From a virus, in IMG/VR virus record IMGVR_UViG_3300042691_037870, positions 62,448 through 126,447 of that record: DNA of 64,000 nt; one strand, written 5' to 3'. Positions 3,137 to 63,020 of this stretch are shown here, in pieces. The position numbers and the translations under genes are program-made. The notes beneath the pieces are model-generated. The model was not told the origin of the DNA, made no database searches, and was given only the letters and a program-made list of their open reading frames with translations. Position 1 is the first letter of the stretch, and each line of letters starts with the position of its first letter.

Positions 3137-4828
3137 TTATTGATTTTTTATTGCGTCTACATTAATTCTATGCAATTCCATATTTATTGTAAACTCTGAA
3201 TCTTTACCAAAAACAATATTAATACTACCAGGTTTTGACGCATCGGTAGTATCATAATATTCAAATCCTTTACGATCTTTCCAACCACCACGAATAAGTG
3301 CATACTCACCACGACCTATTAATATGTCTCCATATTCATCAAGACCTTTAGGTGGCTCGTTTGCATTTGCTATGTCAGTTTTAAATGCTTCATTCTCTTC
3401 ACTTACAAACCAAACATTTACAGAATCCACACCTTCAACAGATTCTATAATAGAAACTAAGTCAGACTTAGGAATTTTATCACGTCTACGATTCTTTAAG
3501 AAATAGTCAGAACATTTAGAAACTACCGCTTGACGAATGATATCTTTACTATATCCTTCATAAGCAGCAATTTTAATGTTAACTACATACTTCTTAACAA
3601 TAGGATCAACAATTTTTACAACTGTCGTTAAAATCTTTTGCCCACTTTCCTCTATCAGATTATAGATCTTGGTTTTTTCTTCTTCGGATAATAAGAATAA
3701 ATTAAGAGGGGTGTTAAAATAATCAGCATTTGTAGGTTTTCTTTTATTTACGTCAGGTATTAAGAAAAGATAAACTACATTATCATCAGATATGTCATTA
3801 TCGCTAAACGTACTAAATGCATCAATAACACTAAACATATTAAATCTTTCTAAGAAATATACATAGTTATCAGCATTTGCTAAAACATACGCACGACTAG
3901 TTTTAGGAGCAAGAATCCTTGTTAAGAACAATGGTTCACTGTCAGCACCAAAGTTAATAGGCAAACCAATACGAATATTAAGTGCTTGGTTTAAATCAAC
4001 AGTTTCACCTGCAAGATCAAACCCATCATCCAGAAAAGTAAATTTAGGTTGTGAATTATTAAAAATGTTTCCGCCATTACCCGCAGTTGTTAAGTATTCA
4101 ACACGAATTGTAAAACCTAAATTTGGTATATTCCCGAAGTAACCATTTCCAAAGTAAATATCAACACCATCGCTAATTCCTGTCTTAACCACTACGCCTT
4201 TTCCTTCGTAAGGAATGTCATAAAGAGAATCATATACTTTCCATCTTTCATTATTTACAAAAACATTAATTATGTTGTTGTCCATCTGATAACCTTTTTT
4301 AGGTTTAATTGTATATGATTGCATAGGCAACCCTGTAGATGTTACTTGTTGCGATTCAATTTCACCTTGCACAACTTTAACTTCAACAGATTTGTTTCCT
4401 GTAAGTTCAAGACGAGTTTCTTCTGTGTTTAGAACTATTAGATACGGTAACCCAGTGCCTGCATTAACTAATCGGGTATAATTAGGTATAATGACAGTAT
4501 TTCCGTACATATCAATTTCATTACCGCTGTAAGATAATATAGCTGTTCCTGTGGCTGAAATTGCACGTGTAGGATTATGTCCCGCGATTCTTGCAAGACC
4601 TTTAATGGAAACTTCTCGAGATGCAGTGTAAATGTTTAGTTCAGTGATGCTGTCTTCAATGTAATAAAAAATAAGTTTACCCATGTCAAGTATTACGGAC
4701 AGTAACTGTCCATAGGCACTTGCTGGGCTAAACACTTCACCTACTTGTTGAAATTGTGTAGTAAGATAACTTCTAACATCAGTATACAACTGCTCAAAAG
4801 TTATCCTATTAACTTTAAAAATTTCCAT
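3137..4828 (-). CDS. Baseplate wedge subunit (T4 gp6 / baseplate J-like)
   Basis: N-terminal LARIAGHNPTRAISA and IYFGNGYFGNIP...IRVEYLTTAGNGGN motifs typical of gp6-like proteins; next to the gp25-like gene. Confidence 0.85.
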   Translation of the reverse strand: MEIFKVNRITFEQLYTDVRSYLTTQFQQVGEVFSPASAYGQLLSVILDMGKLIFYYIEDSITELNIYTASREVSIKGLARIAGHNPTRAISATGTAILSYSGNEIDMYGNTVIIPNYTRLVNAGTGLPYLIVLNTEETRLELTGNKSVEVKVVQGEIESQQVTSTGLPMQSYTIKPKKGYQMDNNIINVFVNNERWKVYDSLYDIPYEGKGVVVKTGISDGVDIYFGNGYFGNIPNLGFTIRVEYLTTAGNGGNIFNNSQPKFTFLDDGFDLAGETVDLNQALNIRIGLPINFGADSEPLFLTRILAPKTSRAYVLANADNYVYFLERFNMFSVIDAFSTFSDNDISDDNVVYLFLIPDVNKRKPTNADYFNTPLNLFLLSEEEKTKIYNLIEESGQKILTTVVKIVDPIVKKYVVNIKIAAYEGYSKDIIRQAVVSKCSDYFLKNRRRDKIPKSDLVSIIESVEGVDSVNVWFVSEENEAFKTDIANANEPPKGLDEYGDILIGRGEYALIRGGWKDRKGFEYYDTTDASKPGSINIVFGKDSEFTINMELHRINVDAIKNQ

Positions 4829-8461: not shown

Positions 8462-9667
8462 TTAAGATTCATTAGGCAATGACAAAAACACTTTATCATT
8501 ATGTACACGATCAATTGAAACCATCACTGTATCACCCACATTAAAGAATTTTTTCTTGGTTTTAATTTCTTTCTGTGCAATTAATCCCACGATATCTTTC
8601 TGTAATTTTACAAGTGCTCCAAACGGTTGAATTGAAACAACTTCTCCACCGCGAATAATTCCAATGTTTTGTTCTTTAAACTCTTCAAGTTCTTTTCTTC
8701 TGAAAGAAGGATCTTCATCAGAAAGAATAATTTTCTTATCAGGTGTGATTTCTTTAATCCAAAACTCAATTTCATCACCTGCATTAAATTCAAAGTTCTT
8801 AAACTTATCTTTAAGAACAGATGACATTTTACTACTGTGAAGTAACCCTGTAAAGATTTCATCAAACTCAACAAAGATACCATACTTTGCAAGACCTGTA
8901 ATAGTACCTGTGTATTTTTTCTCAACATCAAGTTCTTCAATTTTTGTAGGAAGAACGTGTGTAAGATATTTCTTATATGAAAATACAAATGTACTACTTT
9001 CAGTTAAGTAATCTTCAACCATCACAGGAACGGTTTTCCCAATCATACTATCAAAATCACGTACAATATTAGCAGCAGCAAGAGATCCTGGTAAGAAACC
9101 GTCAATGCCTTGAACTGAAATAATAAACCCACCTTGATTCTTACCTGTAATTTTTCCATAGTAAGCACTTGTAGGTTTTGCAATTTGTGAAAAGAATTCA
9201 TCTTTAATATGTTTAAGATGTCCTTCATATAGTGAAACCTTTACATAAGGTTTTACCATTTCAACTATTGTACAATAATCTTGAGCAATAAAGTTTCTAC
9301 GCCCTTCTTCATCAGATAAACTTAAGACAAGATCGCCTTCTGTAATTCCTAACATAGAAAAGAATTTCTTTTCTTGTTCTAAATTAATTACAGCATCAAT
9401 AAATCCTGTTAGCGTTACATTAAGATTTCTTTCTTTACCAACTCGTACATCAACGATTTTGTACATTTCGCCATTCTTAGGTTCTTTATTGGCTACTTCA
9501 GTAATATTTTCATAAAGCTTTGCAAGATCTTCTGCATATGCTTCATGACAATATATGTTGGTTTTGTATTTAGAAGATAGTTTTTTGTTGGGAATCAACT
9601 TTCCATTTGTTGCAAGCACGTCCCACTCGAGCTCACTGAAAAAGTCATTTTGTTTTTTTAGTTCCAT
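8462..9667 (-). CDS. rpsA: Ribosomal protein bS1-like protein (3+ S1 OB domains)
   Basis: GKITGKNQGGFIISVQGIDGFLPGS, GTITGLAKYGIFVEF..FTGLLHSS and GEVVSIQPFGALVKL..IVGLI are tandem S1 repeats. Confidence 0.85.
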   Translation of the reverse strand: MELKKQNDFFSELEWDVLATNGKLIPNKKLSSKYKTNIYCHEAYAEDLAKLYENITEVANKEPKNGEMYKIVDVRVGKERNLNVTLTGFIDAVINLEQEKKFFSMLGITEGDLVLSLSDEEGRRNFIAQDYCTIVEMVKPYVKVSLYEGHLKHIKDEFFSQIAKPTSAYYGKITGKNQGGFIISVQGIDGFLPGSLAAANIVRDFDSMIGKTVPVMVEDYLTESSTFVFSYKKYLTHVLPTKIEELDVEKKYTGTITGLAKYGIFVEFDEIFTGLLHSSKMSSVLKDKFKNFEFNAGDEIEFWIKEITPDKKIILSDEDPSFRRKELEEFKEQNIGIIRGGEVVSIQPFGALVKLQKDIVGLIAQKEIKTKKKFFNVGDTVMVSIDRVHNDKVFLSLPNES

Positions 9668-30836: not shown

Positions 30837-31328
30837 TTAGATAATCATTCCTTTATATTGCTTATGATACCAATCTAACCAAGAAGGCGTGTTTTTATCC
30901 AAAGCTTTGAAAGTTTTCCAGTAATGAAAGAATTTCTTTTCAGAACCTTCTTCGTATTTCTTAATTAAAGCATCTTCTTCCGCCATAATTGTTTTTTCTT
31001 TTTCAATTACATTGGCAAGTTCAAGTATTTTTTCTTCTAAGTCTTTAAACTTCCTAACAGCGTCAGTAGTGTCAATACCACTAACAGCAAGATCAACAAT
31101 AAGATCACGCACTTTTGTTCGTTGAGCAATTAAATCATTAATCTCAGGTATGATTTTATTATGACGTTCTTTTGCCGCTTCACGAGTTCTTTTAAATCTG
31201 TCATATCTTTCTTGAAGTTCTTTATCATTCAAGTCAGACTGAAATTCAGCATAGATTAATTCATAAGCACTAAGTTCTGGCTTAGGCGTTTTCTTTCTTG
31301 TTGCTTTAGGTTTTAGTTCTTTTTCCAT
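30837..31328 (-). CDS. Coiled-coil hypothetical protein
   Basis: 163 aa, heptad-rich. Confidence 0.7.
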   Translation of the reverse strand: MEKELKPKATRKKTPKPELSAYELIYAEFQSDLNDKELQERYDRFKRTREAAKERHNKIIPEINDLIAQRTKVRDLIVDLAVSGIDTTDAVRKFKDLEEKILELANVIEKEKTIMAEEDALIKKYEEGSEKKFFHYWKTFKALDKNTPSWLDWYHKQYKGMII

Positions 31329-31696
31329 TAAGATAAATGTTTAGATGCATTATTTAATAAGCCTGTGATATTTGCAGCACCTACTGGGTTTGCACTTTGG
31401 ATTCTAAATGCAGGAATCTGTTTGTGATTGTCCATACAATACTCTACCAACCACTGTGCACAGGTAAAACCTGTCTTTTCTTTGTAAGTACTTTTATAAC
31501 AATGAATGTCAGACAAATCGTGATCAAAGCAGATTAAATCGGGTAACCCATTTTCTGTGATCCATTCAACAAATTGATTATAACTTTTTACCCAATGTAC
31601 TTCACCTTCTCCGTAAGCAAACTCAGGAGCATAGCGCATTAACCAATCAGCTATGTATGGATTACGAATATCGTCTAACCAAAGTAATCTTTTCAT
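31328..31696 (-). CDS. Cyclic-phosphate-processing receiver domain protein
   Basis: LWLDDIR, ICFDHDL, KTG and SANPVG motifs. Confidence 0.8.
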   Translation of the reverse strand: MKRLLWLDDIRNPYIADWLMRYAPEFAYGEGEVHWVKSYNQFVEWITENGLPDLICFDHDLSDIHCYKSTYKEKTGFTCAQWLVEYCMDNHKQIPAFRIQSANPVGAANITGLLNNASKHLS

Positions 31697-42348: not shown

Positions 42349-42609
42349 TTACTTATTTTCAAAATTCCACCCATTGTTTAAATCATAATCTAACCAAGTG
42401 CATAGGTGAGTATCAACTATCATTGAGGAACTTGTCCATTCCCCACTTTTTTTTCTTTTAACAATTACGTGTATGTATTCAGGATCTTGCGGATCTTCAA
42501 TGTACTCACGAACGATAGGACTTCTTGGTTTAATCATTCTATGAATTACTCTTGCTGTTGCAAGATATGCCTGTTCGTCTTCTTGTGAATAGTTACCCCA
42601 TTTCGCCAT
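42349..42609 (-). CDS. Hypothetical protein
   Basis: 86 aa. Confidence 0.65.
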   Translation of the reverse strand: MAKWGNYSQEDEQAYLATARVIHRMIKPRSPIVREYIEDPQDPEYIHVIVKRKKSGEWTSSSMIVDTHLCTWLDYDLNNGWNFENK

Positions 42610-43033
42610 CGATCTTTCTTAAAAATTTTTGATATTGTGCAATTAGTTTTTCAAGATTTTCACGCCCTTTAGGATTTGCACTATGAACATAACATTCAGG
42701 AAACGGCATTTTAGTAGCTTCACAATGTGAAATTAACCAAAATAGACAATCCTCTCCTGTCTTATTAACAAAATGAGCATCATTTGGATTAGGCGGATTA
42801 TCGTGACCACCATTTTCAAAATACCATTTTGTGTGTTCTACATGCAAGTCATGGTCAAATGAAATCACAGATGGGAATTCTGAATGCTCCCAATTATATC
42901 TGATGATTCTGGTAAATTCATCAAAACTTGAAACCATTATCCAATCTTTACACTCATAAAGATGAGCCAATTCAGGAAACTTTTTTGCGCTGTCAGCGGG
43001 CTTACGATGATCGTCTAAATAAAGTTTATACAT
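42593..43033 (-). CDS. Cyclic-phosphate-processing receiver domain protein (second paralog)
   Basis: LYLDDHR, ISFDHDL, KTG and HSANPKG motifs; start moved to MYKLY (43033), downstream of the promoter. Confidence 0.8.
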   Translation of the reverse strand: MYKLYLDDHRKPADSAKKFPELAHLYECKDWIMVSSFDEFTRIIRYNWEHSEFPSVISFDHDLHVEHTKWYFENGGHDNPPNPNDAHFVNKTGEDCLFWLISHCEATKMPFPECYVHSANPKGRENLEKLIAQYQKFLRKIDGEMG

Positions 43034-43056
43034 ATCTTCTCCTTTATTATTATATG

Positions 43057-43111
43057 TAAATATAAACAAAAAGTTCTGAAGATAAGTATCCCAGAACTAA
43101 AAGTTATTAAC
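43057..43111 (-). promoter_or_regulatory. Class I promoter with embedded terminator hairpin
   Basis: GTTAATAAC box, TATATTTA, AGTTCTG/CAGAACT hairpin. Confidence 0.75.
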
Positions 43112-59326: not shown

Positions 59327-59533
59327 CTAAACATCTTCCCAATTTGCTTCTTGAACAGTTTCACAAAAAACAAAGATTCCATCTTTCTTGAGAACTTTAT
59401 CAGCACCTAAGAAATCTTTCCAGGCATTAAATAACTCTCCTTTAAGAGAGCCATCACGATTACTTAAGGTGCTGACTTTTATCTCACGGAGAATAACATA
59501 AAACTCTCCTCCGTATTGAAAAAGCTGTTTCAT
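59327..59533 (-). CDS. Small hypothetical protein coupled to rsr
   Basis: 68 aa; ATG overlaps the rsr stop. Confidence 0.7.
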   Translation of the reverse strand: MKQLFQYGGEFYVILREIKVSTLSNRDGSLKGELFNAWKDFLGADKVLKKDGIFVFCETVQEANWEDV

Positions 59534-61161
59534 TATTGCTTGTTAGGTTTTTCAACTTCATTCCAAACATCAATGATTGCTTTTGCAAACACCGGTTCTT
59601 TTCCGGTCCAGCCTGTTAACATTGCACCACGGTACAAGTTTTCTGGTAGAACTGTGTTATTGTATCCTGCAACTTGTACAGAGAACACGTTAACTTTAGG
59701 GTTAACTTTTTTACGGTATTCTTCAACAAGTTTGTAAACATCAATGTAAGAACCTCCACCTCCAAAGATATAATCTTGGTAATCACGAGAGTTAGTACCG
59801 TAAAGGCCACCGTGACCCGCTTGTTGGTCAGAATAAATGAATACTGTATCCCAGTGTTCTTTATTCTTAATTGCTTTATCCCAGAATAACCAAATACCAT
59901 TTTCTGTTCCACCACCAATTCCATTACCTTCAGTATTTGATTCTTTTAGTTGAGTTAACAACCCGTTTCTTTTGGAAACCGCACGCGTTTTAAGTCTATC
60001 ACCAAATACACCTACATAACCTTCTTCAGAGCTCAAACCAGTGATAAGAGCTGATAAGTTAGCAATTTCAGCAACAGTTACTGAACCATATTCAGAGTTA
60101 AATGCACCCCAAGCAGAACCTGAGTTATCACAAAGACTCATAACTTTACCTTCAAGTTTTGGCATATTTGCAACCGCAATATCCATACATTCTTCAAGAG
60201 CATCAAGAATCATTTGTGAGTGGTTAACACTTGCGCTTTTTACAGCTTTAAATGCAGACCAATAACGGAATGGAAATTGTTTTCCACCAGGTACACCTGC
60301 TTTAAGTTGCTCAAGAACTTTTGCAGCTACTGCTTTATCGTCAATCTCTGTAAAGATACCACGAAGATTTCTTAAAAGAGCCATGTGTGGGATACGAATT
60401 GTTTCAAGGATTTCAGCCCAAGACTTTCCTTGAGATCTTAAAGATTCCCAAGTTTGCTCAGAATCGTTTACCACAAGAGTACCTGTTTTCATTAACTCGT
60501 TAATATCTTCATTACTTGCGTGTGAAATACGAACTAAGTCAATAAGACTTTTGCCTTTATATTTGTTTAACTGATATCTTGAGAAAGATTCAAGAGTTTC
60601 TGCCCAAGTTCTTTTAAGGATTGATGGCAAACCTTTTTTAGAACCTTTTAAGAATGCGTAATAATCAAATTGATTTGTTACATCATCAGGACGGTTTGCA
60701 ATCGCTTTACCAATAGCCTTCATATAACCAGGATTAGCTTCGTTAAAAGCAATACGGTTTGGGTGTTGAGAAGCTCTAACATAGATCACGGCTGGGTTTA
60801 ATCTCATAAAGTATTCTTTACGTAATTCAACAGCAAGATCTAATGTAGCTTTAAAATCATACTCAAGAGCAGAATCAATTGCAGCAGTAAATACATCAGC
60901 CGCTGATCTTTTATCTTTTATAAGATCTTTAAAGATACTGTAAGTTAATAAGTCAGAGTGGTTACGAATACTTGCTGGAGATTCAATACCATCACGGTAA
61001 TACTGAGGCTCACCGAAGATAGAACTTGCAGCAATCATTTTTAAAGTTGCAAGAGGTGAAAGTGTAAAACTTGTACCACCCATAAAGTTTTCAACAGATG
61101 TTGAATAAACTTCGTTTCTTGTTGTAGTTTCTTTTGTTGCGTACTTTGATAATCTACTCAT
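59533..61161 (-). CDS. rsr: Ro60/Rsr (TROVE + vWA) RNA-binding protein
   Basis: FGEPQYY, RPDD, YQLNKY, MALLRNLR and PFRY TROVE motifs; DNSGS MIDAS, GGT and SD.Q vWA motifs. Confidence 0.93.
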   Translation of the reverse strand: MSRLSKYATKETTTRNEVYSTSVENFMGGTSFTLSPLATLKMIAASSIFGEPQYYRDGIESPASIRNHSDLLTYSIFKDLIKDKRSAADVFTAAIDSALEYDFKATLDLAVELRKEYFMRLNPAVIYVRASQHPNRIAFNEANPGYMKAIGKAIANRPDDVTNQFDYYAFLKGSKKGLPSILKRTWAETLESFSRYQLNKYKGKSLIDLVRISHASNEDINELMKTGTLVVNDSEQTWESLRSQGKSWAEILETIRIPHMALLRNLRGIFTEIDDKAVAAKVLEQLKAGVPGGKQFPFRYWSAFKAVKSASVNHSQMILDALEECMDIAVANMPKLEGKVMSLCDNSGSAWGAFNSEYGSVTVAEIANLSALITGLSSEEGYVGVFGDRLKTRAVSKRNGLLTQLKESNTEGNGIGGGTENGIWLFWDKAIKNKEHWDTVFIYSDQQAGHGGLYGTNSRDYQDYIFGGGGSYIDVYKLVEEYRKKVNPKVNVFSVQVAGYNNTVLPENLYRGAMLTGWTGKEPVFAKAIIDVWNEVEKPNKQ

Positions 61162-61199
61162 GTTAATAGTTTTTGTGTGTTATATTTTTATTTGTATTG

Positions 61200-61254
61200 C
61201 AAATTTATTAATCTTTTATCACAGTAGCAAATTTTGTTAACGTGTGTTATTAAC
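61200..61254 (-). promoter_or_regulatory. Class I promoter of rsr (consensus Bacteroidota -33/-7)
   Basis: TTTG-N20-TAAATTTG plus GTTAATAAC box at the fixed gap. Confidence 0.85.
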
Positions 61255-61286
61255 AAAAAATGCTTCGCGAAATTAATCACGAAGCA
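61255..61286 (-). terminator. Terminator ending the Y-RNA array
   Basis: TGCTTCG/CGAAGCA stem plus U6. Confidence 0.8.
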
Positions 61287-61322
61287 GTCATATATAGACA
61301 GCATATTAATGCTGGTATGTTT

Positions 61323-61405
61323 AATATGACCGAGAATATTGAAAAGGTGTGTTGTTTGAATTTTCCTTAAAATTGATGTAACACCCAATCCCGCTTCGGA
61401 ATATT
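61323..61405 (-). ncRNA. Y-RNA-like ncRNA B (short, about 83 nt)
   Basis: Terminal stem AATATTCCGAAG...TTCTCGGTCATATT, inner GGTGT/ACACC helix, GTTACATCA motif; next to rsr. Confidence 0.75.
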
Positions 61406-61414
61406 TTATAAGTT

Positions 61415-61658
61415 TTGTCGTACCTGAGAATTTCTCATTAGAGGATTGCAAATTACGTTTGCGATTCGACCCTGTTATTAAGCGGGTAGCCGATCTACTA
61501 AAATCTATCAAAGATAGCCCGTCCTGTTTGTAGAAGTAAAAGACGGTAAGATTCTTTAAATGTTTAAGGTTTTACGCTTAACGTCATATTAAAGAAATTG
61601 GCTGCTCTAATTATCAATGTATTTGAAGTAACCCTAACAACCGCTTCAAGCGTGACAA
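61415..61658 (-). ncRNA. Y-RNA-like ncRNA A (long, about 244 nt)
   Basis: TTGTCACGCTTGAAGCGG...TTCTCAGGTACGACAA terminal stem, GGTTACTTCA motif, multi-hairpin interior. Confidence 0.75.
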
Positions 61659-61676
61659 TGTATTGTAAGAACGTAA

Positions 61677-61739
61677 AAACGAAATCCAACTTTATTCTTC
61701 CATTTTTGGATGTAATCAAGTTATACAACTATTTCGTTT
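61677..61739 (-). ncRNA. Possible third, divergent Y-like unit C
   Basis: 9-bp AAACGAAAT/ATTTCGTTT stem, AACTT/AAGTT helix, GATTACATC motif, TCCA/TGGA hairpin. Confidence 0.45.
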
Positions 61740-61776
61740 ATGCTGGTTGTGCAGCTGTTTAAATTAAATTCGGATT

Positions 61777-61802
61777 ATATATACATGCTTAAACTTATAG
61801 TT
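61777..61802 (-). promoter_or_regulatory. Class II-like promoter upstream of the Y-RNA array
   Basis: AACT-N17-TATAT; also resembles the late octamer. Confidence 0.5.
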
Positions 61803-61850
61803 TTTGCATTTTTGCACTTTTTTAAGACTTTTTTCATATTGTTAATAAAG

Positions 61851-63020
61851 TTATTGCTTAAATCCTGTTCTGTAGATGTAAAAATTTGTAGATCCATTAT
61901 TTGCTGGTGAACTAATTGTGAGTAATGAAGTCCCAGGAATAGTATTTCGGAGATCAGTTGTACTTGATAATATTGTTGAATGTTGGGCAGGAGTCATAAT
62001 TCTGTAGTTAGGTGTATATGGCCAAGCAGCGAATCTACCGTTCATTTTTGAATATGTAGTAAAAATATCTGAAACGGATACTTGAGTGTTTTGGTTTACG
62101 TCAAATAAGTAATATGTTTTTGATGAAAATGGATTTTGATTAAGAATAAAAGAAGTCATTGATGATATATCAGACTGTGTAGGGTTTCCTACTGATAAAT
62201 CTCCAATTCTTAATTCAAATTGAAAAGACTGAACATCTAATCCAGAATTTATAACATATCTTCCTGTTGTATCTGTTATATGTGTTGATTTTAACGAAAA
62301 AGAGGTTTCAGCGGATGCTGGTATAAATCTTACTGAATAGTTAGTAACAGACCATAAAGAAGCATTTTTCCCACCTACCGGTACTACGTTTGTATTATCA
62401 ATGTTTACCAAACCTGCTGTTGCATTATTTACTCCACATAATGGTTTGGCTGCATAGTTAATATCAATAATGTTGGTAGTTTCATTAAGTATTATTTGAA
62501 ATGTAAATAAAGTAGTTCTACATCCATAATGAGGTACTGCATTAAAAGAAACAATCAGCTGTCTATTAGGTGCTAAACCTGTTGTTCTATAATAAATGTT
62601 TGCTGCGCCTGGAAATAAGTCTTCCCAATCTGCCATAATTACATTTCTTGGTGAACCCGCATTTGGTATAAATTGTGCAGTGTAACCTGTTGTTTGTCCA
62701 GGAGAAAATCCAATCCAACCATTGGATCCTATATAAAATTGTGTATAGTTATTACCAAAAAAATTAAATGTAAAACCAATGTTAAACGGGCCGTGTGTAA
62801 CATCATCAGAAGAAGGCACAACCGTTCCTGTGTTAAACGATAATCCGCTTGGATATGTAGGAAATGTTATTGCATACGGATCTGTTCTTCTACCAAAAAG
62901 ATTAACGGGTATGTTAGCTATGCCAGTCCCATTTGAATCATAAACAAACCCTGAATGTTTAAACTCTTGTGAGTATAAACATGTGGATAACAGCAAAAAG
63001 ATAAGTATAATTTTTTTCAT
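61851..63020 (-). CDS. Secreted protein with nidogen-like and dockerin-like segments
   Basis: Signal peptide ending in YSQ; DD....IGFTFNFFG..Y...YIGSNGWI.F; DVNQNTQVSVSD Ca-loop. Confidence 0.7.
   Translation of the reverse strand: MKKIILIFLLLSTCLYSQEFKHSGFVYDSNGTGIANIPVNLFGRRTDPYAITFPTYPSGLSFNTGTVVPSSDDVTHGPFNIGFTFNFFGNNYTQFYIGSNGWIGFSPGQTTGYTAQFIPNAGSPRNVIMADWEDLFPGAANIYYRTTGLAPNRQLIVSFNAVPHYGCRTTLFTFQIILNETTNIIDINYAAKPLCGVNNATAGLVNIDNTNVVPVGGKNASLWSVTNYSVRFIPASAETSFSLKSTHITDTTGRYVINSGLDVQSFQFELRIGDLSVGNPTQSDISSMTSFILNQNPFSSKTYYLFDVNQNTQVSVSDIFTTYSKMNGRFAAWPYTPNYRIMTPAQHSTILSSTTDLRNTIPGTSLLTISSPANNGSTNFYIYRTGFKQ

What the first reader, a model, noticed from the sequence alone, without database searches (positions are those of the whole stretch)
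59533..61802. Phage Ro60/Rsr with its own tandem array of 2-3 distinct Y-like RNAs under separate temporal control
Seen: the 690-nt gap upstream of rsr holds two units sharing GAAGCGG...GTTAC(A/T)TCAA...TTCTC(A/G)G with self-paired ends (61415-61658, 61323-61405). A degenerate third unit lies at 61677-61739. A terminator and a separate rsr promoter follow. Known: Ro60/Rsr binds the terminal bulged stem of Y RNAs, which has a CGAAG-like 5' strand, and the other end of a Y RNA tethers effectors such as PNPase. Inference: this is one Rsr scaffold with several interchangeable adaptor RNAs. rsr has a host-sigma (early) promoter and the RNAs a different, later-class promoter, so Rsr partners could change during infection.
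Basis: partly seen in the sequence, partly recalled or inferred. Interest (0 to 1): 0.85.

Follow-up and report, generated by a model that had tools for sequence, protein, structure and literature searches.

The report
Phage Ro60 gene with two Y-RNAs
An uncultured freshwater phage carries a Ro60-type RNA-binding protein gene preceded by two small structured RNA genes that share one docking handle but have different bodies, a further and somewhat unusual example of the known Ro60/Y-RNA partnership.

Summary
The core observation holds. Window 59533-61161 (-) encodes a true Ro60/Rsr homologue (Pfam TROVE; the model's 12 best PDB matches are all Ro60/Rsr). Upstream on the same strand lie two structured RNA genes: unit A (61415-61658) and unit B (about 61330-61399). 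Both close with one handle: YYGAAGCGG, a 9-bp variable stem, then GUUACUUC; on the 3' side the stem complement, then AUUCUCRG.

In 46 related viral loci this handle recurs beside rsr on its strand, with two or more copies in 38. Its stems covary strongly (0 of 500 shuffles reach the observed score). Cellular Bacteroidota YrlA RNAs carry a related motif. The handle also encloses the published YrlA of Bacillus phage G.

Four metatranscriptome runs each hold one 240-287-nt contig that covers unit A. This is a weak hint of a discrete RNA.

- **Third unit (61677-61739):** not supported.
- **Temporal-control idea:** unsupported. The promoter layout is reversed in most relatives.
- **YrlA membership:** neither RNA has the tRNA-like domain, and Rfam finds nothing.

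Phage Ro60 with several Y-like RNAs is already in print (Chen 2014; Thermus phage phiLo 2025; Listeria phage CKA15 2025). This scan also noted Y-RNA arrays before on other DNA. Verdict: a new variant of a known kind, of moderate interest.

The parts
59533..61161 (-). rsr: Ro60/Rsr (TROVE + vWA) homologue, 542 aa
   Evidence: ORF. Pfam TROVE 30.5 bits, cut-off 23. PHROG 850 'RNA-binding protein', E 6.7e-46, residues 19-524. A profile of 17 homologues hits PDB 9KOP/9L5Y (Thermus phage phiLo Ro60, E 3e-36) and 2NVO (D. radiodurans Rsr, E 1.9e-4). AlphaFold model pLDDT 80.2, pTM 0.80. The 12 best Foldseek PDB matches are all Ro60/Rsr, E 2.9e-13 to 1.9e-9. D345, S347 and S349 are invariant.
61200..61230 (-). 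promoter-like site before rsr: TTG-N20-TAAATTTG
   Evidence: It is the only full TTG-N17-23-TAnnTTTG match inside an intergenic gap of the whole 126,447-base record. That this is the Bacteroidota sigma-A consensus is from general knowledge, not from a call.
61251..61286 (-). intrinsic-terminator-like hairpin (10 bp, 5 G-C) plus T run, ending the RNA array
   Evidence: folded
61299..61314 (-). small palindromic hairpin between unit B and the terminator
61325..61404 (-). unit B: short Y-like RNA (core 61330-61399). Terminal stem CCGA/UCGG, loop AGCGG, 9-bp stem, GUUACAUC, A-rich loop.
   Evidence: R1 74.2 bits. Alignment A1 of 22 short units: 13 pairs, 9 with compensatory changes, 89.5% of cells paired against 37-50% when slid, covariation 0.515 against 0.215 shuffled, 0 of 500 shuffles as high.
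61415..61658 (-). unit A: long Y-like RNA (about 244 nt). It has the same handle (UUGAAGCGG 61641-61649, stem 61632-61640 with about 61435-61444, UUACUUC 61625-61631, AUUCUCAGG near 61423-61431). It encloses a multi-hairpin body of about 180 nt.
   Evidence: Alignment A2 of 24 long units: 19 pairs in 3 helices, 16 with compensatory changes, 92.3% paired, 0 of 500 shuffles as high. RNA-library contigs at 61417-61701, 61418-61660, 61423-61662 and 61430-61716, all 100% identical.
61448..61470 (-). inside unit A: GUCGAAU followed by a 5-bp hairpin with a CGUAA loop, conserved across the long units
   Evidence: Helix 3 (5 of 5 pairs with compensatory changes); sequence.
61667..61674 (-). conserved box ACGTTCTT just 5' of unit A; function unknown
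   Evidence: [AC]G[TA]TCTT lies 17-33 nt before the long unit in 27 of 27 loci. It is not enriched elsewhere in the window (7 matches against 4.2 expected).

Best explanation
The gap upstream of a phage Ro60/Rsr gene encodes two non-coding RNAs, unit A (about 244 nt) and unit B (about 70-80 nt). They lie head to tail on the rsr strand and end at a shared terminator, so they are probably made as one precursor and trimmed. Both close with the same handle: a terminal stem formed by the 5' and 3' ends, an internal loop whose 5' strand reads (C/U)GAAGCGG, a second stem that is free to vary, and an invariant GUUACUUC. I read this handle as the docking site for the phage Rsr ring, as in Y RNAs. The differing distal parts would then give the Rsr-RNA particle different partners or properties. 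By analogy with D. radiodurans Rsr and Thermus phage phiLo Ro60, one likely partner is the host exoribonuclease PNPase. Unit B has a short A-rich loop. Unit A has a conserved body of several hairpins. Shown here: the protein is Ro60-like; the RNAs are conserved, covary and stay linked to rsr. Weakly shown: unit A exists as a discrete RNA. Inferred: Rsr binding, the nature of the partners, and co-transcription.
For: (1) The protein is Ro60/Rsr.
(2) Covariation is strong. For short units, 9 of 13 pairs show compensatory changes and 0 of 500 shuffles reach the score. For long units, 16 of 19 pairs do, including long-range pairs about 230 nt apart in unit A.
(3) The RNAs are linked to rsr. All 86 R1 matches at E<=1 in the window plus 46 related loci lie on the rsr strand. 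40 of 46 loci have at least one unit and 38 of 46 at least two. Flanking protein genes are not conserved except in L001.
(4) Specificity control: 0 R1 matches at E<=0.01 in 377,622 bases from 80 bacterial loci that each carry the exact 5' motif.
(5) There is a link to published Y RNAs. In Bacillus phage G (Rsr 54% identical), R1 hit L048 1778-1937 coincides with the YrlA that Chen et al. 2014 list at 405189-405352 (supplement file 5). That hit encloses an Rfam YrlA match (36.2 bits, E 1.2e-5). In 11 of 14 cellular Bacteroidota rsr loci with a YrlA hit, YYGWA[GC]-N4-16-WUACWUC stands just 5' of the tRNA-like domain, against 0 of 14 on the other strand. The (C/U)GAAG strand resembles the GNCGAAN0-1G motif proposed for Rsr contact (Chen 2014, passage) and the CGAA motif whose mutation reduced phiLo Ro60 binding (PMC12135203, passages).
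(6) Expression hint: four RNA-library runs from three studies each hold one whole contig of 240-287 nt, 100% identical, spanning unit A. Their 3' ends fall within 61417-61430 and two 5' ends at 61660 and 61662, with no loose ends.
Against: - No binding data exist for this RNA or this protein.
- Neither RNA reaches any Rfam family, even at E<=10, including YrlA RF02553 and Deinococcus_Y_RNA.
- No tRNA-like domain is detectable. Chen 2014 report one in at least one Y RNA of every species they examined.
- Unit A has U where the published motif has C (UUGAAG).
- Contigs cannot give strand, true ends or abundance, and unit B was not seen in RNA runs.
- Handle-bearing units also occur away from rsr: 9 of 20 R1-positive loci from a pattern scan have no rsr within 3 kb. 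Two of these lie in contigs that do hold rsr elsewhere. Five others are in fragments of 9-22% completeness.
- R1 E-values come from a shortened calibration. Several loci are near-duplicates, so the counts overstate independent events.
Confidence: 0.8

Rival explanations
1. One reading: three interchangeable adaptor RNAs. The RNAs and rsr would sit under different temporal promoter classes, so that Rsr changes partners during infection.
For: Within the window, a consensus host-type promoter stands before rsr (61230-61200) and none before the RNAs. A terminator separates the array from rsr. Two distinct RNA bodies exist.
Against: The third unit fails every test. In 17 of 27 loci the host-type -7 box lies before the RNA array. 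Only the window has one at promoter distance (-46) before rsr; two relatives have a match at -112/-113, inside their last short unit. So the layout is not a conserved design. The sequence block after the upstream gene's stop codon occurs once in the window. The ACGTTCTT box is not enriched in the window. No second promoter class is therefore defined. Two RNA contigs run upstream to 61701 and 61716, which fits a longer precursor or read-through.
Confidence: 0.1
2. The units are structured RNAs that work without Rsr and merely travel with rsr in an RNA-gene island. They could be processing cassettes or stabilising clamps around tRNA-like and other small RNAs.
For: In the more distant relatives rsr sits inside tRNA gene clusters. 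The handle there encloses sequences that score as full tRNAs (Rfam tRNA up to 59 bits; ARAGORN calls them tRNA-Lys and others). Units occur far from rsr in some contigs.
Against: The handle shares its motif with the 5' end of cellular YrlA RNAs, which are Rsr-bound in Salmonella and M. smegmatis according to Chen 2014 (passages). It also encloses the phage G YrlA. Linkage to rsr holds from 77% down to about 36-40% protein identity. In the window there are no tRNA genes at all, yet the units persist.
Confidence: 0.1
3. The region is a long structured 5' leader (attenuator or riboswitch-like element) that controls rsr in cis.
For: It lies directly upstream of rsr on the same strand, is highly structured and contains a terminator.
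Against: A promoter-like site lies between the terminator and rsr. In L026, L027, L029, L030 and L041 the units lie downstream of rsr. Tandem copies have different bodies. RNA contigs cover unit A only and do not run on towards rsr. No Rfam cis-regulatory family matches.
Confidence: 0.04

Closest known systems
Thermus phage phiLo Ro60 with Yrl1 and Yrl2 (NAR 2025, PMC12135203; PDB 9KOP, 9L5Y)
   Same: A phage-encoded Ro60 with two Y-RNA-like genes directly upstream. Each is a stem/loop/stem RNA with a CGAA-type motif. It is the best PDB match to the window protein by sequence profile (E 3e-36) and by fold (TM 0.67/0.77). The paper reports binding by EMSA and ternary complexes with host PNPase (sections 17, 20 and 21 read as passages).
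   Different: The window protein is only about 20% identical to it. I could not compare the RNAs because no phiLo sequence was at hand. Unit A is a 244-nt RNA with a conserved multi-hairpin body. The handle here has extra invariant elements (GCGG, GUUACUUC). The host is probably Bacteroidota, not Thermus.
YrlA / YrlB bacterial Y RNAs (Chen et al. 2014, PMC4201824; Rfam RF02553)
   Same: They are encoded next to rsr on the same strand, with at least two Y RNAs per species. A G/C-GAA-G motif lies near the 5' end. One member is a simple hairpin (YrlB-like, as unit B). The handle motif is shared with cellular Bacteroidota YrlA and with the phage G YrlA listed in that paper's supplement.
   Different: The defining tRNA-like domain (T arm, D arm, acceptor-like stem) is not detectable in either window RNA. 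Rfam YrlA does not match even at E<=10. Conversely, R1 finds nothing at E<=0.01 in 28 loci from 21 Bacteroidota genomes with TROVE genes.
Bacillus phage G gp540 locus
   Same: It holds the closest Rsr in a cultured phage (54% identity over 99%). The same handle is present in 7 copies on the rsr strand, five of them in the unannotated 1,060-nt gap before gp540.
   Different: Phage G has a YrlA-type tRNA mimic among its units and sits in a tRNA/tmRNA cluster. The window has two units and no tRNA genes. Chen 2014's table lists one of the seven.
Listeria phage CKA15 (mSystems 2025, PMC12282133)
   Same: The paper reports three very highly transcribed non-coding regions within 2 kb upstream of an Rsr-like gene on the same strand. 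The authors propose them as phage Y RNAs (discussion passage).
   Different: No sequence comparison was made here. That paper has transcript data but no structural or covariation analysis; here it is the reverse.

Membership tests
Ro60/Rsr (TROVE) proteins | TROVE domain detectable by sequence | tested here: met
   Pfam PF05731, 30.5 bits, cut-off 23. Profile hits to 9KOP/9L5Y and 2NVO.
Ro60/Rsr (TROVE) proteins | Ro60 fold: helical-repeat ring followed by a vWA domain | tested here: met
   Model pLDDT 80.2, pTM 0.80: helices to about residue 331, then an alpha/beta domain. The 12 best Foldseek hits are all Ro60/Rsr; the next hits are vWA domains only.
Ro60/Rsr (TROVE) proteins | metal-site motif DxSxS of the vWA domain | tested here: met
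   D345, S347 and S349 are invariant in 17 homologues. Calling this the MIDAS motif rests on general knowledge.
Y RNAs (Ro60-bound non-coding RNAs) | encoded close to rsr, same strand (bacterial and phage cases) | tested here: met
   Units A and B lie 168-497 nt upstream of rsr on the minus strand. Units are present in 40 of 46 related loci.
Y RNAs (Ro60-bound non-coding RNAs) | 5' and 3' ends pair into a stem interrupted by a loop or bulge whose 5' strand carries the CGAA-type motif | tested here: met
   Covarying terminal stem plus second stem around the loop AGCGG. Unit B reads CCGAAG. Unit A reads UUGAAG, with the C replaced by U.
Y RNAs (Ro60-bound non-coding RNAs) | physically bound by Ro60/Rsr | not testable with these tools
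   Needs EMSA or pull-down; the complex predictor here takes proteins only.
Y RNAs (Ro60-bound non-coding RNAs) | accumulates as a discrete small RNA | tested here: inconclusive
   Unit A: one contig in each of four RNA-library runs from three studies, 240-287 nt, with ends near the predicted ends. Contigs give no strand or true ends. Unit B was not seen.
YrlA (Rfam RF02553) | tRNA-like domain (T arm, closed acceptor-like stem, D arm) | tested here: not met
   No RF02553 or tRNA match at E<=10 in 61100-61900. No ARAGORN call in the window. The same model does match phage G and 14 of 20 Bacteroidota rsr loci.
YrlA (Rfam RF02553) | GNCGAAN0-1G motif near the 5' end | tested here: inconclusive
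   Unit B has UCCGAAG and unit A CUUGAAG, so neither has the first G. The related YYGWAG...WUACUUC pattern is shared with 11 of 14 cellular YrlA loci.
phiLo-type phage Yrl RNAs | two Yrl genes upstream of a phage Ro60 gene | tested here: met
   The arrangement is as described in PMC12135203, compared.
phiLo-type phage Yrl RNAs | sequence or structure homology to Yrl1/Yrl2 | not tested
   No phiLo record appeared among the rows listed from the two tblastn searches of the phage collection (30 of 62 records; 60 of 92).

The most novel reading that the evidence does not exclude
This clade of large phages may run a natural 'adaptor library'. One Rsr ring and one invariant docking handle would be combined with unrelated RNA bodies: a minimal A-rich loop; a conserved multi-hairpin domain of about 180 nt that no Rfam family describes (unit A); complete unpermuted tRNA look-alikes; and YrlA-type permuted tRNA mimics. 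There are 2 to 7 per genome, and some lie far from rsr. Each body would aim Rsr at a different host or phage RNA machine. In this phage, moving the host-type promoter from the RNA array to rsr could uncouple the supply of protein and RNA.
Probability: 0.3. Interest if true: 0.6.

Novelty: new variant of a known kind. Interest (0 to 1): 0.42.

Why it matters
Ro60/Y-RNA particles are understood in a handful of organisms. In phages they rest mainly on one 2025 structure and on bioinformatic lists.

This locus and its roughly 40 relatives define a Y-like RNA subfamily that current Rfam models miss. It has a sharply conserved handle, which makes a clean target for binding and mutagenesis tests.

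Unit A is also a long conserved body of unknown partner, and it seems to accumulate in freshwater metatranscriptomes.

If the bodies do select different partners, the family would be a simple natural system for asking how one RNA chaperone ring is re-aimed. It would also show what phages gain from bringing their own Ro60. The principle itself (phage Ro60 plus several Y RNAs, modular bodies) is already published, so the gain is in breadth and testability, not in kind.

Tried and rejected
- **Rfam:** nothing at gathering thresholds on the whole window. At E<=10 on 61100-61900 there were only four chance-level matches (DUF3800-I, Arrc14, sn1185, EGFOA).
- **tRNAs:** ARAGORN found none in the window.
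- **PDB by sequence:** phmmer with the single protein found nothing at E<=0.01; the profile was needed.
- **Late-promoter motif:** the block after the upstream stop codon occurs once in the window. ACGTTCTTWMMA gave 7 matches against 4.2 expected.
- **Pattern scan of genome contigs:** None of the 80 fetched loci holds an R1 match. The pattern alone is therefore chance-level in bacteria. Because the scan was truncated, it says nothing about absence from bacteria.
- **Orphan units:** five contigs holding them were searched for rsr and none was found, but they are 9-22% complete fragments.
- **Three Bacteroidota genomes reached through chance loci:** no Rsr.
- **RNA runs:** no contig lies over rsr, unit B or the flanking genes. 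A part without cover is not evidence.
- **tRNA-like reading of unit A's body:** I considered a D-arm-like GUAG-AUCGG-CUAC and a T-loop-like GUCGAAU. No tool supported it, and the alignment there is too uncertain.
- **Pairing of GAAG with the CUUC of GUUACUUC:** rejected, because CAUC and CUCC variants are not compensated.
- **Small ORF 59327-59533:** it overlaps the rsr stop and has a relative only in L001, so it is not a conserved partner.
- **Literature on phage G:** the search for phage G Y-RNA arrays found nothing beyond Chen 2014 and papers citing it (listing read). The searches found the three phage papers cited.
Full report
**What is there**

The window is the second half of a 126,447-base IMG/VR virus record, estimated at 49% complete. 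It has 32% G+C, and nearly all ORFs are on the minus strand. Phage genes are present, including baseplate wedge, thymidylate synthase and DNA methylase.

The ORF at 59533-61161 (-) encodes 542 aa. It is followed upstream by a 689-nt gap (61162-61850) before the next gene, 61851-63020 (-).

**The protein**

- Pfam finds TROVE (30.5 bits against a cut-off of 23). PHROG 850 covers residues 19-524 (E 6.7e-46).
- The single sequence finds nothing in the PDB. A profile of 17 homologues finds the Thermus phage phiLo Ro60 (9KOP/9L5Y, E 3e-36) and D. radiodurans Rsr (2NVO, E 1.9e-4).
- An AlphaFold model (pLDDT 80.2, pTM 0.80) has as its 12 best Foldseek PDB matches only Ro60/Rsr structures: phiLo, Deinococcus, Xenopus and human, E 2.9e-13 to 1.9e-9. 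vWA domains alone follow.
- D345, S347 and S349 are invariant.

It is a Ro60/Rsr homologue.

**The RNAs**

The minus strand of the gap folds much better than shuffles (z = -6.46).

Unit A is at 61415-61658 and unit B has its core at 61330-61399. Both begin with YYGAAGCGG, then a 9-nt variable segment, then GUUAC(U/A)UC. Both end with the complement of the variable segment followed by A(A/U)UUCUC(A/G)G.

Relatives of the protein were found in 46 viral contigs at 24-77% identity. The same motif recurs next to rsr, on its strand, in most of them.

**Covariation**

| Alignment | Sequences | Pairs | Pairs with compensatory changes | Cells paired | Shuffles as high |
|---|---|---|---|---|---|
| A1, short units | 22 distinct | 13 | 9 | 89.5% (37-50% when the 3' partners are slid) | 0 of 500 |
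| A2, long units | 24 distinct | 19, in three helices | 16 | 92.3% | 0 of 500 |

- For A1 the covariation score is 0.515 against 0.215 in shuffles.
- The three helices in A2 are a 6-bp terminal stem, the 8-bp second stem, and an internal hairpin with a GUAA-type loop.
- The two handle stems of unit A bring together bases about 230 nt apart.

**The covariance model R1**

R1 was built from the short units.

- It gives 86 matches at E<=1 in the window plus the 46 loci, all on the rsr strand.
- Combined with a 5'-motif regular expression, 40 of 46 loci have at least one unit and 38 of 46 have two or more: 21 loci with 2, 13 with 3 and 4 with 5.
- Of the six loci without a unit, two have no upstream DNA, two have only weak matches, and two are the most distant proteins.
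- Several loci are near-duplicates, so these are not 46 independent observations.
- As a control, 80 bacterial loci that each contain the exact 5' motif by chance gave no R1 match at E<=0.01 in 377,622 bases.
- In the phage's own 126-kb record, R1 finds only unit B at E<=0.001.

**The third unit**

61677-61739 is not a family member.

- R1 gives it 3.4 bits, E 2.2, with filters off.
- Local alignment to A or B is not above shuffles.
- The closest relative, L001, has no blastn match there.
- It is a hairpin (z = -2.63) followed by U residues.

**Are these Y RNAs?**

Rfam has no match for either unit. Neither contains a detectable tRNA-like domain, so they are not YrlA by that family's defining feature. 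Three results nevertheless tie the handle to Y RNAs.

1. In Bacillus phage G (Rsr 54% identical), R1 finds seven units around gp540. One, L048 1778-1937, coincides with the putative YrlA that Chen et al. 2014 list for phage G at 405189-405352 (supplement file 5). It encloses an Rfam YrlA match of 36.2 bits.
2. In a sample of 401 genomes from the phylum of a Flagellimonas genome, 21 have TROVE genes. Rfam YrlA matches 14 of 20 of those loci at E<0.001. In 11 of these 14, YYGWA[GC]-N4-16-WUACWUC stands just 5' of the tRNA-like domain, against 0 of 14 on the opposite strand. R1 itself does not match these cellular loci (best 18.3 bits, E 0.038). The phage handle is therefore a distinct relative.
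3. The (C/U)GAAG strand resembles the GNCGAAN0-1G motif that Chen 2014 relate to Rsr contact (passage). It also resembles the CGAA motif whose mutation lowered phiLo Ro60 binding (passages).

**Modularity**

The closest 27 loci, the window included, have one long unit followed by one or two short ones.

In more distant loci (Rsr 52-54% identical) the units lie downstream of rsr, inside tRNA gene clusters. Several enclose sequences that score as whole tRNAs: Rfam tRNA up to 59 bits, and ARAGORN calls them tRNA-Lys(UUU) and others.

Phage G has a YrlA-type permuted tRNA mimic plus six other units, five of them in the unannotated 1,060-nt gap before gp540.

The same handle therefore carries at least four kinds of body.

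**Expression**

Six RNA-library runs hold 16-28% of the sampled words of 60900-61900. I laid four of them, from three studies, on 60400-62400. Each has exactly one contig, whole and 100% identical:

- 61417-61701 (285 nt)
- 61418-61660 (243 nt)
- 61423-61662 (240 nt)
- 61430-61716 (287 nt)

The 3' ends fall within 14 nt of the predicted 3' end of unit A. Two 5' ends fall at the base of its extended terminal stem, and two run on into the leader. By the tool's own standard this is a weak hint of a discrete RNA of about 243 nt with longer precursors. Contigs show neither strand nor true ends, and the lack of cover elsewhere is not evidence.

**Transcription signals**

- A terminator-like hairpin (61286-61261) plus T run ends the array.
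- TTG-N20-TAAATTTG stands at 61230-61200 before rsr. It is the only full match to that pattern in any intergenic gap of the record. That this is the Bacteroidota consensus is from general knowledge.
- No such box precedes unit A.
- In the relatives the picture is reversed. TAnnTTTG lies 47-58 nt before the long unit in 17 of 27 loci. Between the RNAs and rsr it stands at promoter distance (-46) only in the window; two relatives have a match at -112/-113, inside their last short unit.
- A conserved box, [AC]G[TA]TCTT, lies 17-33 nt before the long unit in 27 of 27 loci. Here it sits about 6 nt outside the shorter contigs' 5' ends. Its role as a promoter part or a processing site is open.
- No recurrent 'late' motif was found.

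The temporal-switch idea thus rests on one genome's layout and is not a property of the system.

**What is already known**

- Chen et al. 2014 (PMC4201824; abstract, passages and supplement tables seen) list YrlA-like RNAs in 254 bacteria and 22 phages. They report at least two Y RNAs in each of the three species they studied.
- The phiLo paper (PMC12135203; abstract, section 17 and passages seen) shows two Yrl RNAs upstream of a phage Ro60. It reports binding, and ternary complexes with host PNPase that slow the enzyme.
- The CKA15 paper (PMC12282133; one discussion passage seen) proposes three abundant RNAs near a phage Rsr as Y RNAs.
- A jumbo-phage review notes TROVE proteins with a tRNA-like partner (PMC7824862; passage seen).
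- Earlier notes of this scan on other genomes also report rows of three to five modular Y RNAs before bacterial rsr (unchecked AI notes).

**Verdict**

This is a sound catch of a phage Ro60 with two partner-type RNAs.

New here:
- a handle subfamily that Rfam misses;
- a conserved long body with no known family;
- evidence that arrays of 2 to 7 units are usual in this phage clade;
- a hint of expression in nature.

Not new: the principle. Not supported: the third unit and the timing model.

Noticed in passing
L048 (Bacillus phage G, NC_023719) 3255-3879, 9360-9428, 1778-1937: Seven R1-type units lie on the gp540 (Rsr) strand. Five are packed into the unannotated 1,060-nt gap before gp540. Only the one at 1778-1937 corresponds to the YrlA listed by Chen 2014.
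   Followed up: partly
L026 4868-4941 and 5003-5086; L027 4701-4773, 4850-4903, 4971-5041; L029 1826-1898, 1956-2027; L030 4745-4817, 4992-5062; L041 5187-5260, 5412-5489: In distant relatives the Y-type handle encloses sequences that Rfam and ARAGORN score as complete, unpermuted tRNAs. tRNA-Lys(UUU) recurs, and one has a UUA 'stop' anticodon. The same loci also hold ordinary tRNA-Lys genes.
   Followed up: partly
L212 2994-3075 and L224 2994-3077 (also L203, L228, L171, L194): Single 'orphan' units have the handle but an AUCAGA/UCUGAU-type terminal stem. Some lie about 5 kb (L224) and about 60 kb (L212) from rsr in contigs that do contain rsr. Others lie in fragments without rsr.
   Followed up: partly
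L031 809-1452: A ROOL RNA (RF03087, 284 bits) sits among tRNA genes about 1.5 kb upstream of an Rsr homologue in a 156-kb viral contig. L046 has a tmRNA (RF00023, 160.9 bits) in the same kind of neighbourhood.
   Followed up: no
window 61667-61674 (-): The box ACGTTCTT, present 17-33 nt before the long Y-like RNA in 27 of 27 loci, lies just outside the apparent mature 5' end. It could be a promoter element or a processing signal.
   Followed up: partly
window 31328-31696 (-) and 42593-43069 (-): Two small proteins carry the cREC_REC 'cyclic-phosphate processing receiver' domain (E 1.7e-21 and 2.9e-16). As I recall, this domain is linked to RNA-end repair; that is not from a call. They might belong to the same RNA-repair theme as Rsr.
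   Followed up: no
window 8462-9667 (-): A 401-aa protein with two S1 RNA-binding domain stretches (E 2.2e-23) is a conceivable phage-encoded partner for structured RNAs.
   Followed up: no
window 59327-59533 (-): A 68-aa ORF has a start that overlaps the rsr stop codon. Its only relative among the 46 loci is in L001, about 1 kb downstream of rsr.
   Followed up: partly
window 61797-61848 (-): An A-rich block directly after the stop of the upstream gene is conserved with L001 (85% over 52 nt) but occurs once in the window. Its function is unknown.
   Followed up: partly
whole record G000: 132 of 134 crude ORFs lie on one strand. Only one intergenic gap holds a full TTG-N17-23-TAnnTTTG site, the one before rsr.
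   Followed up: partly
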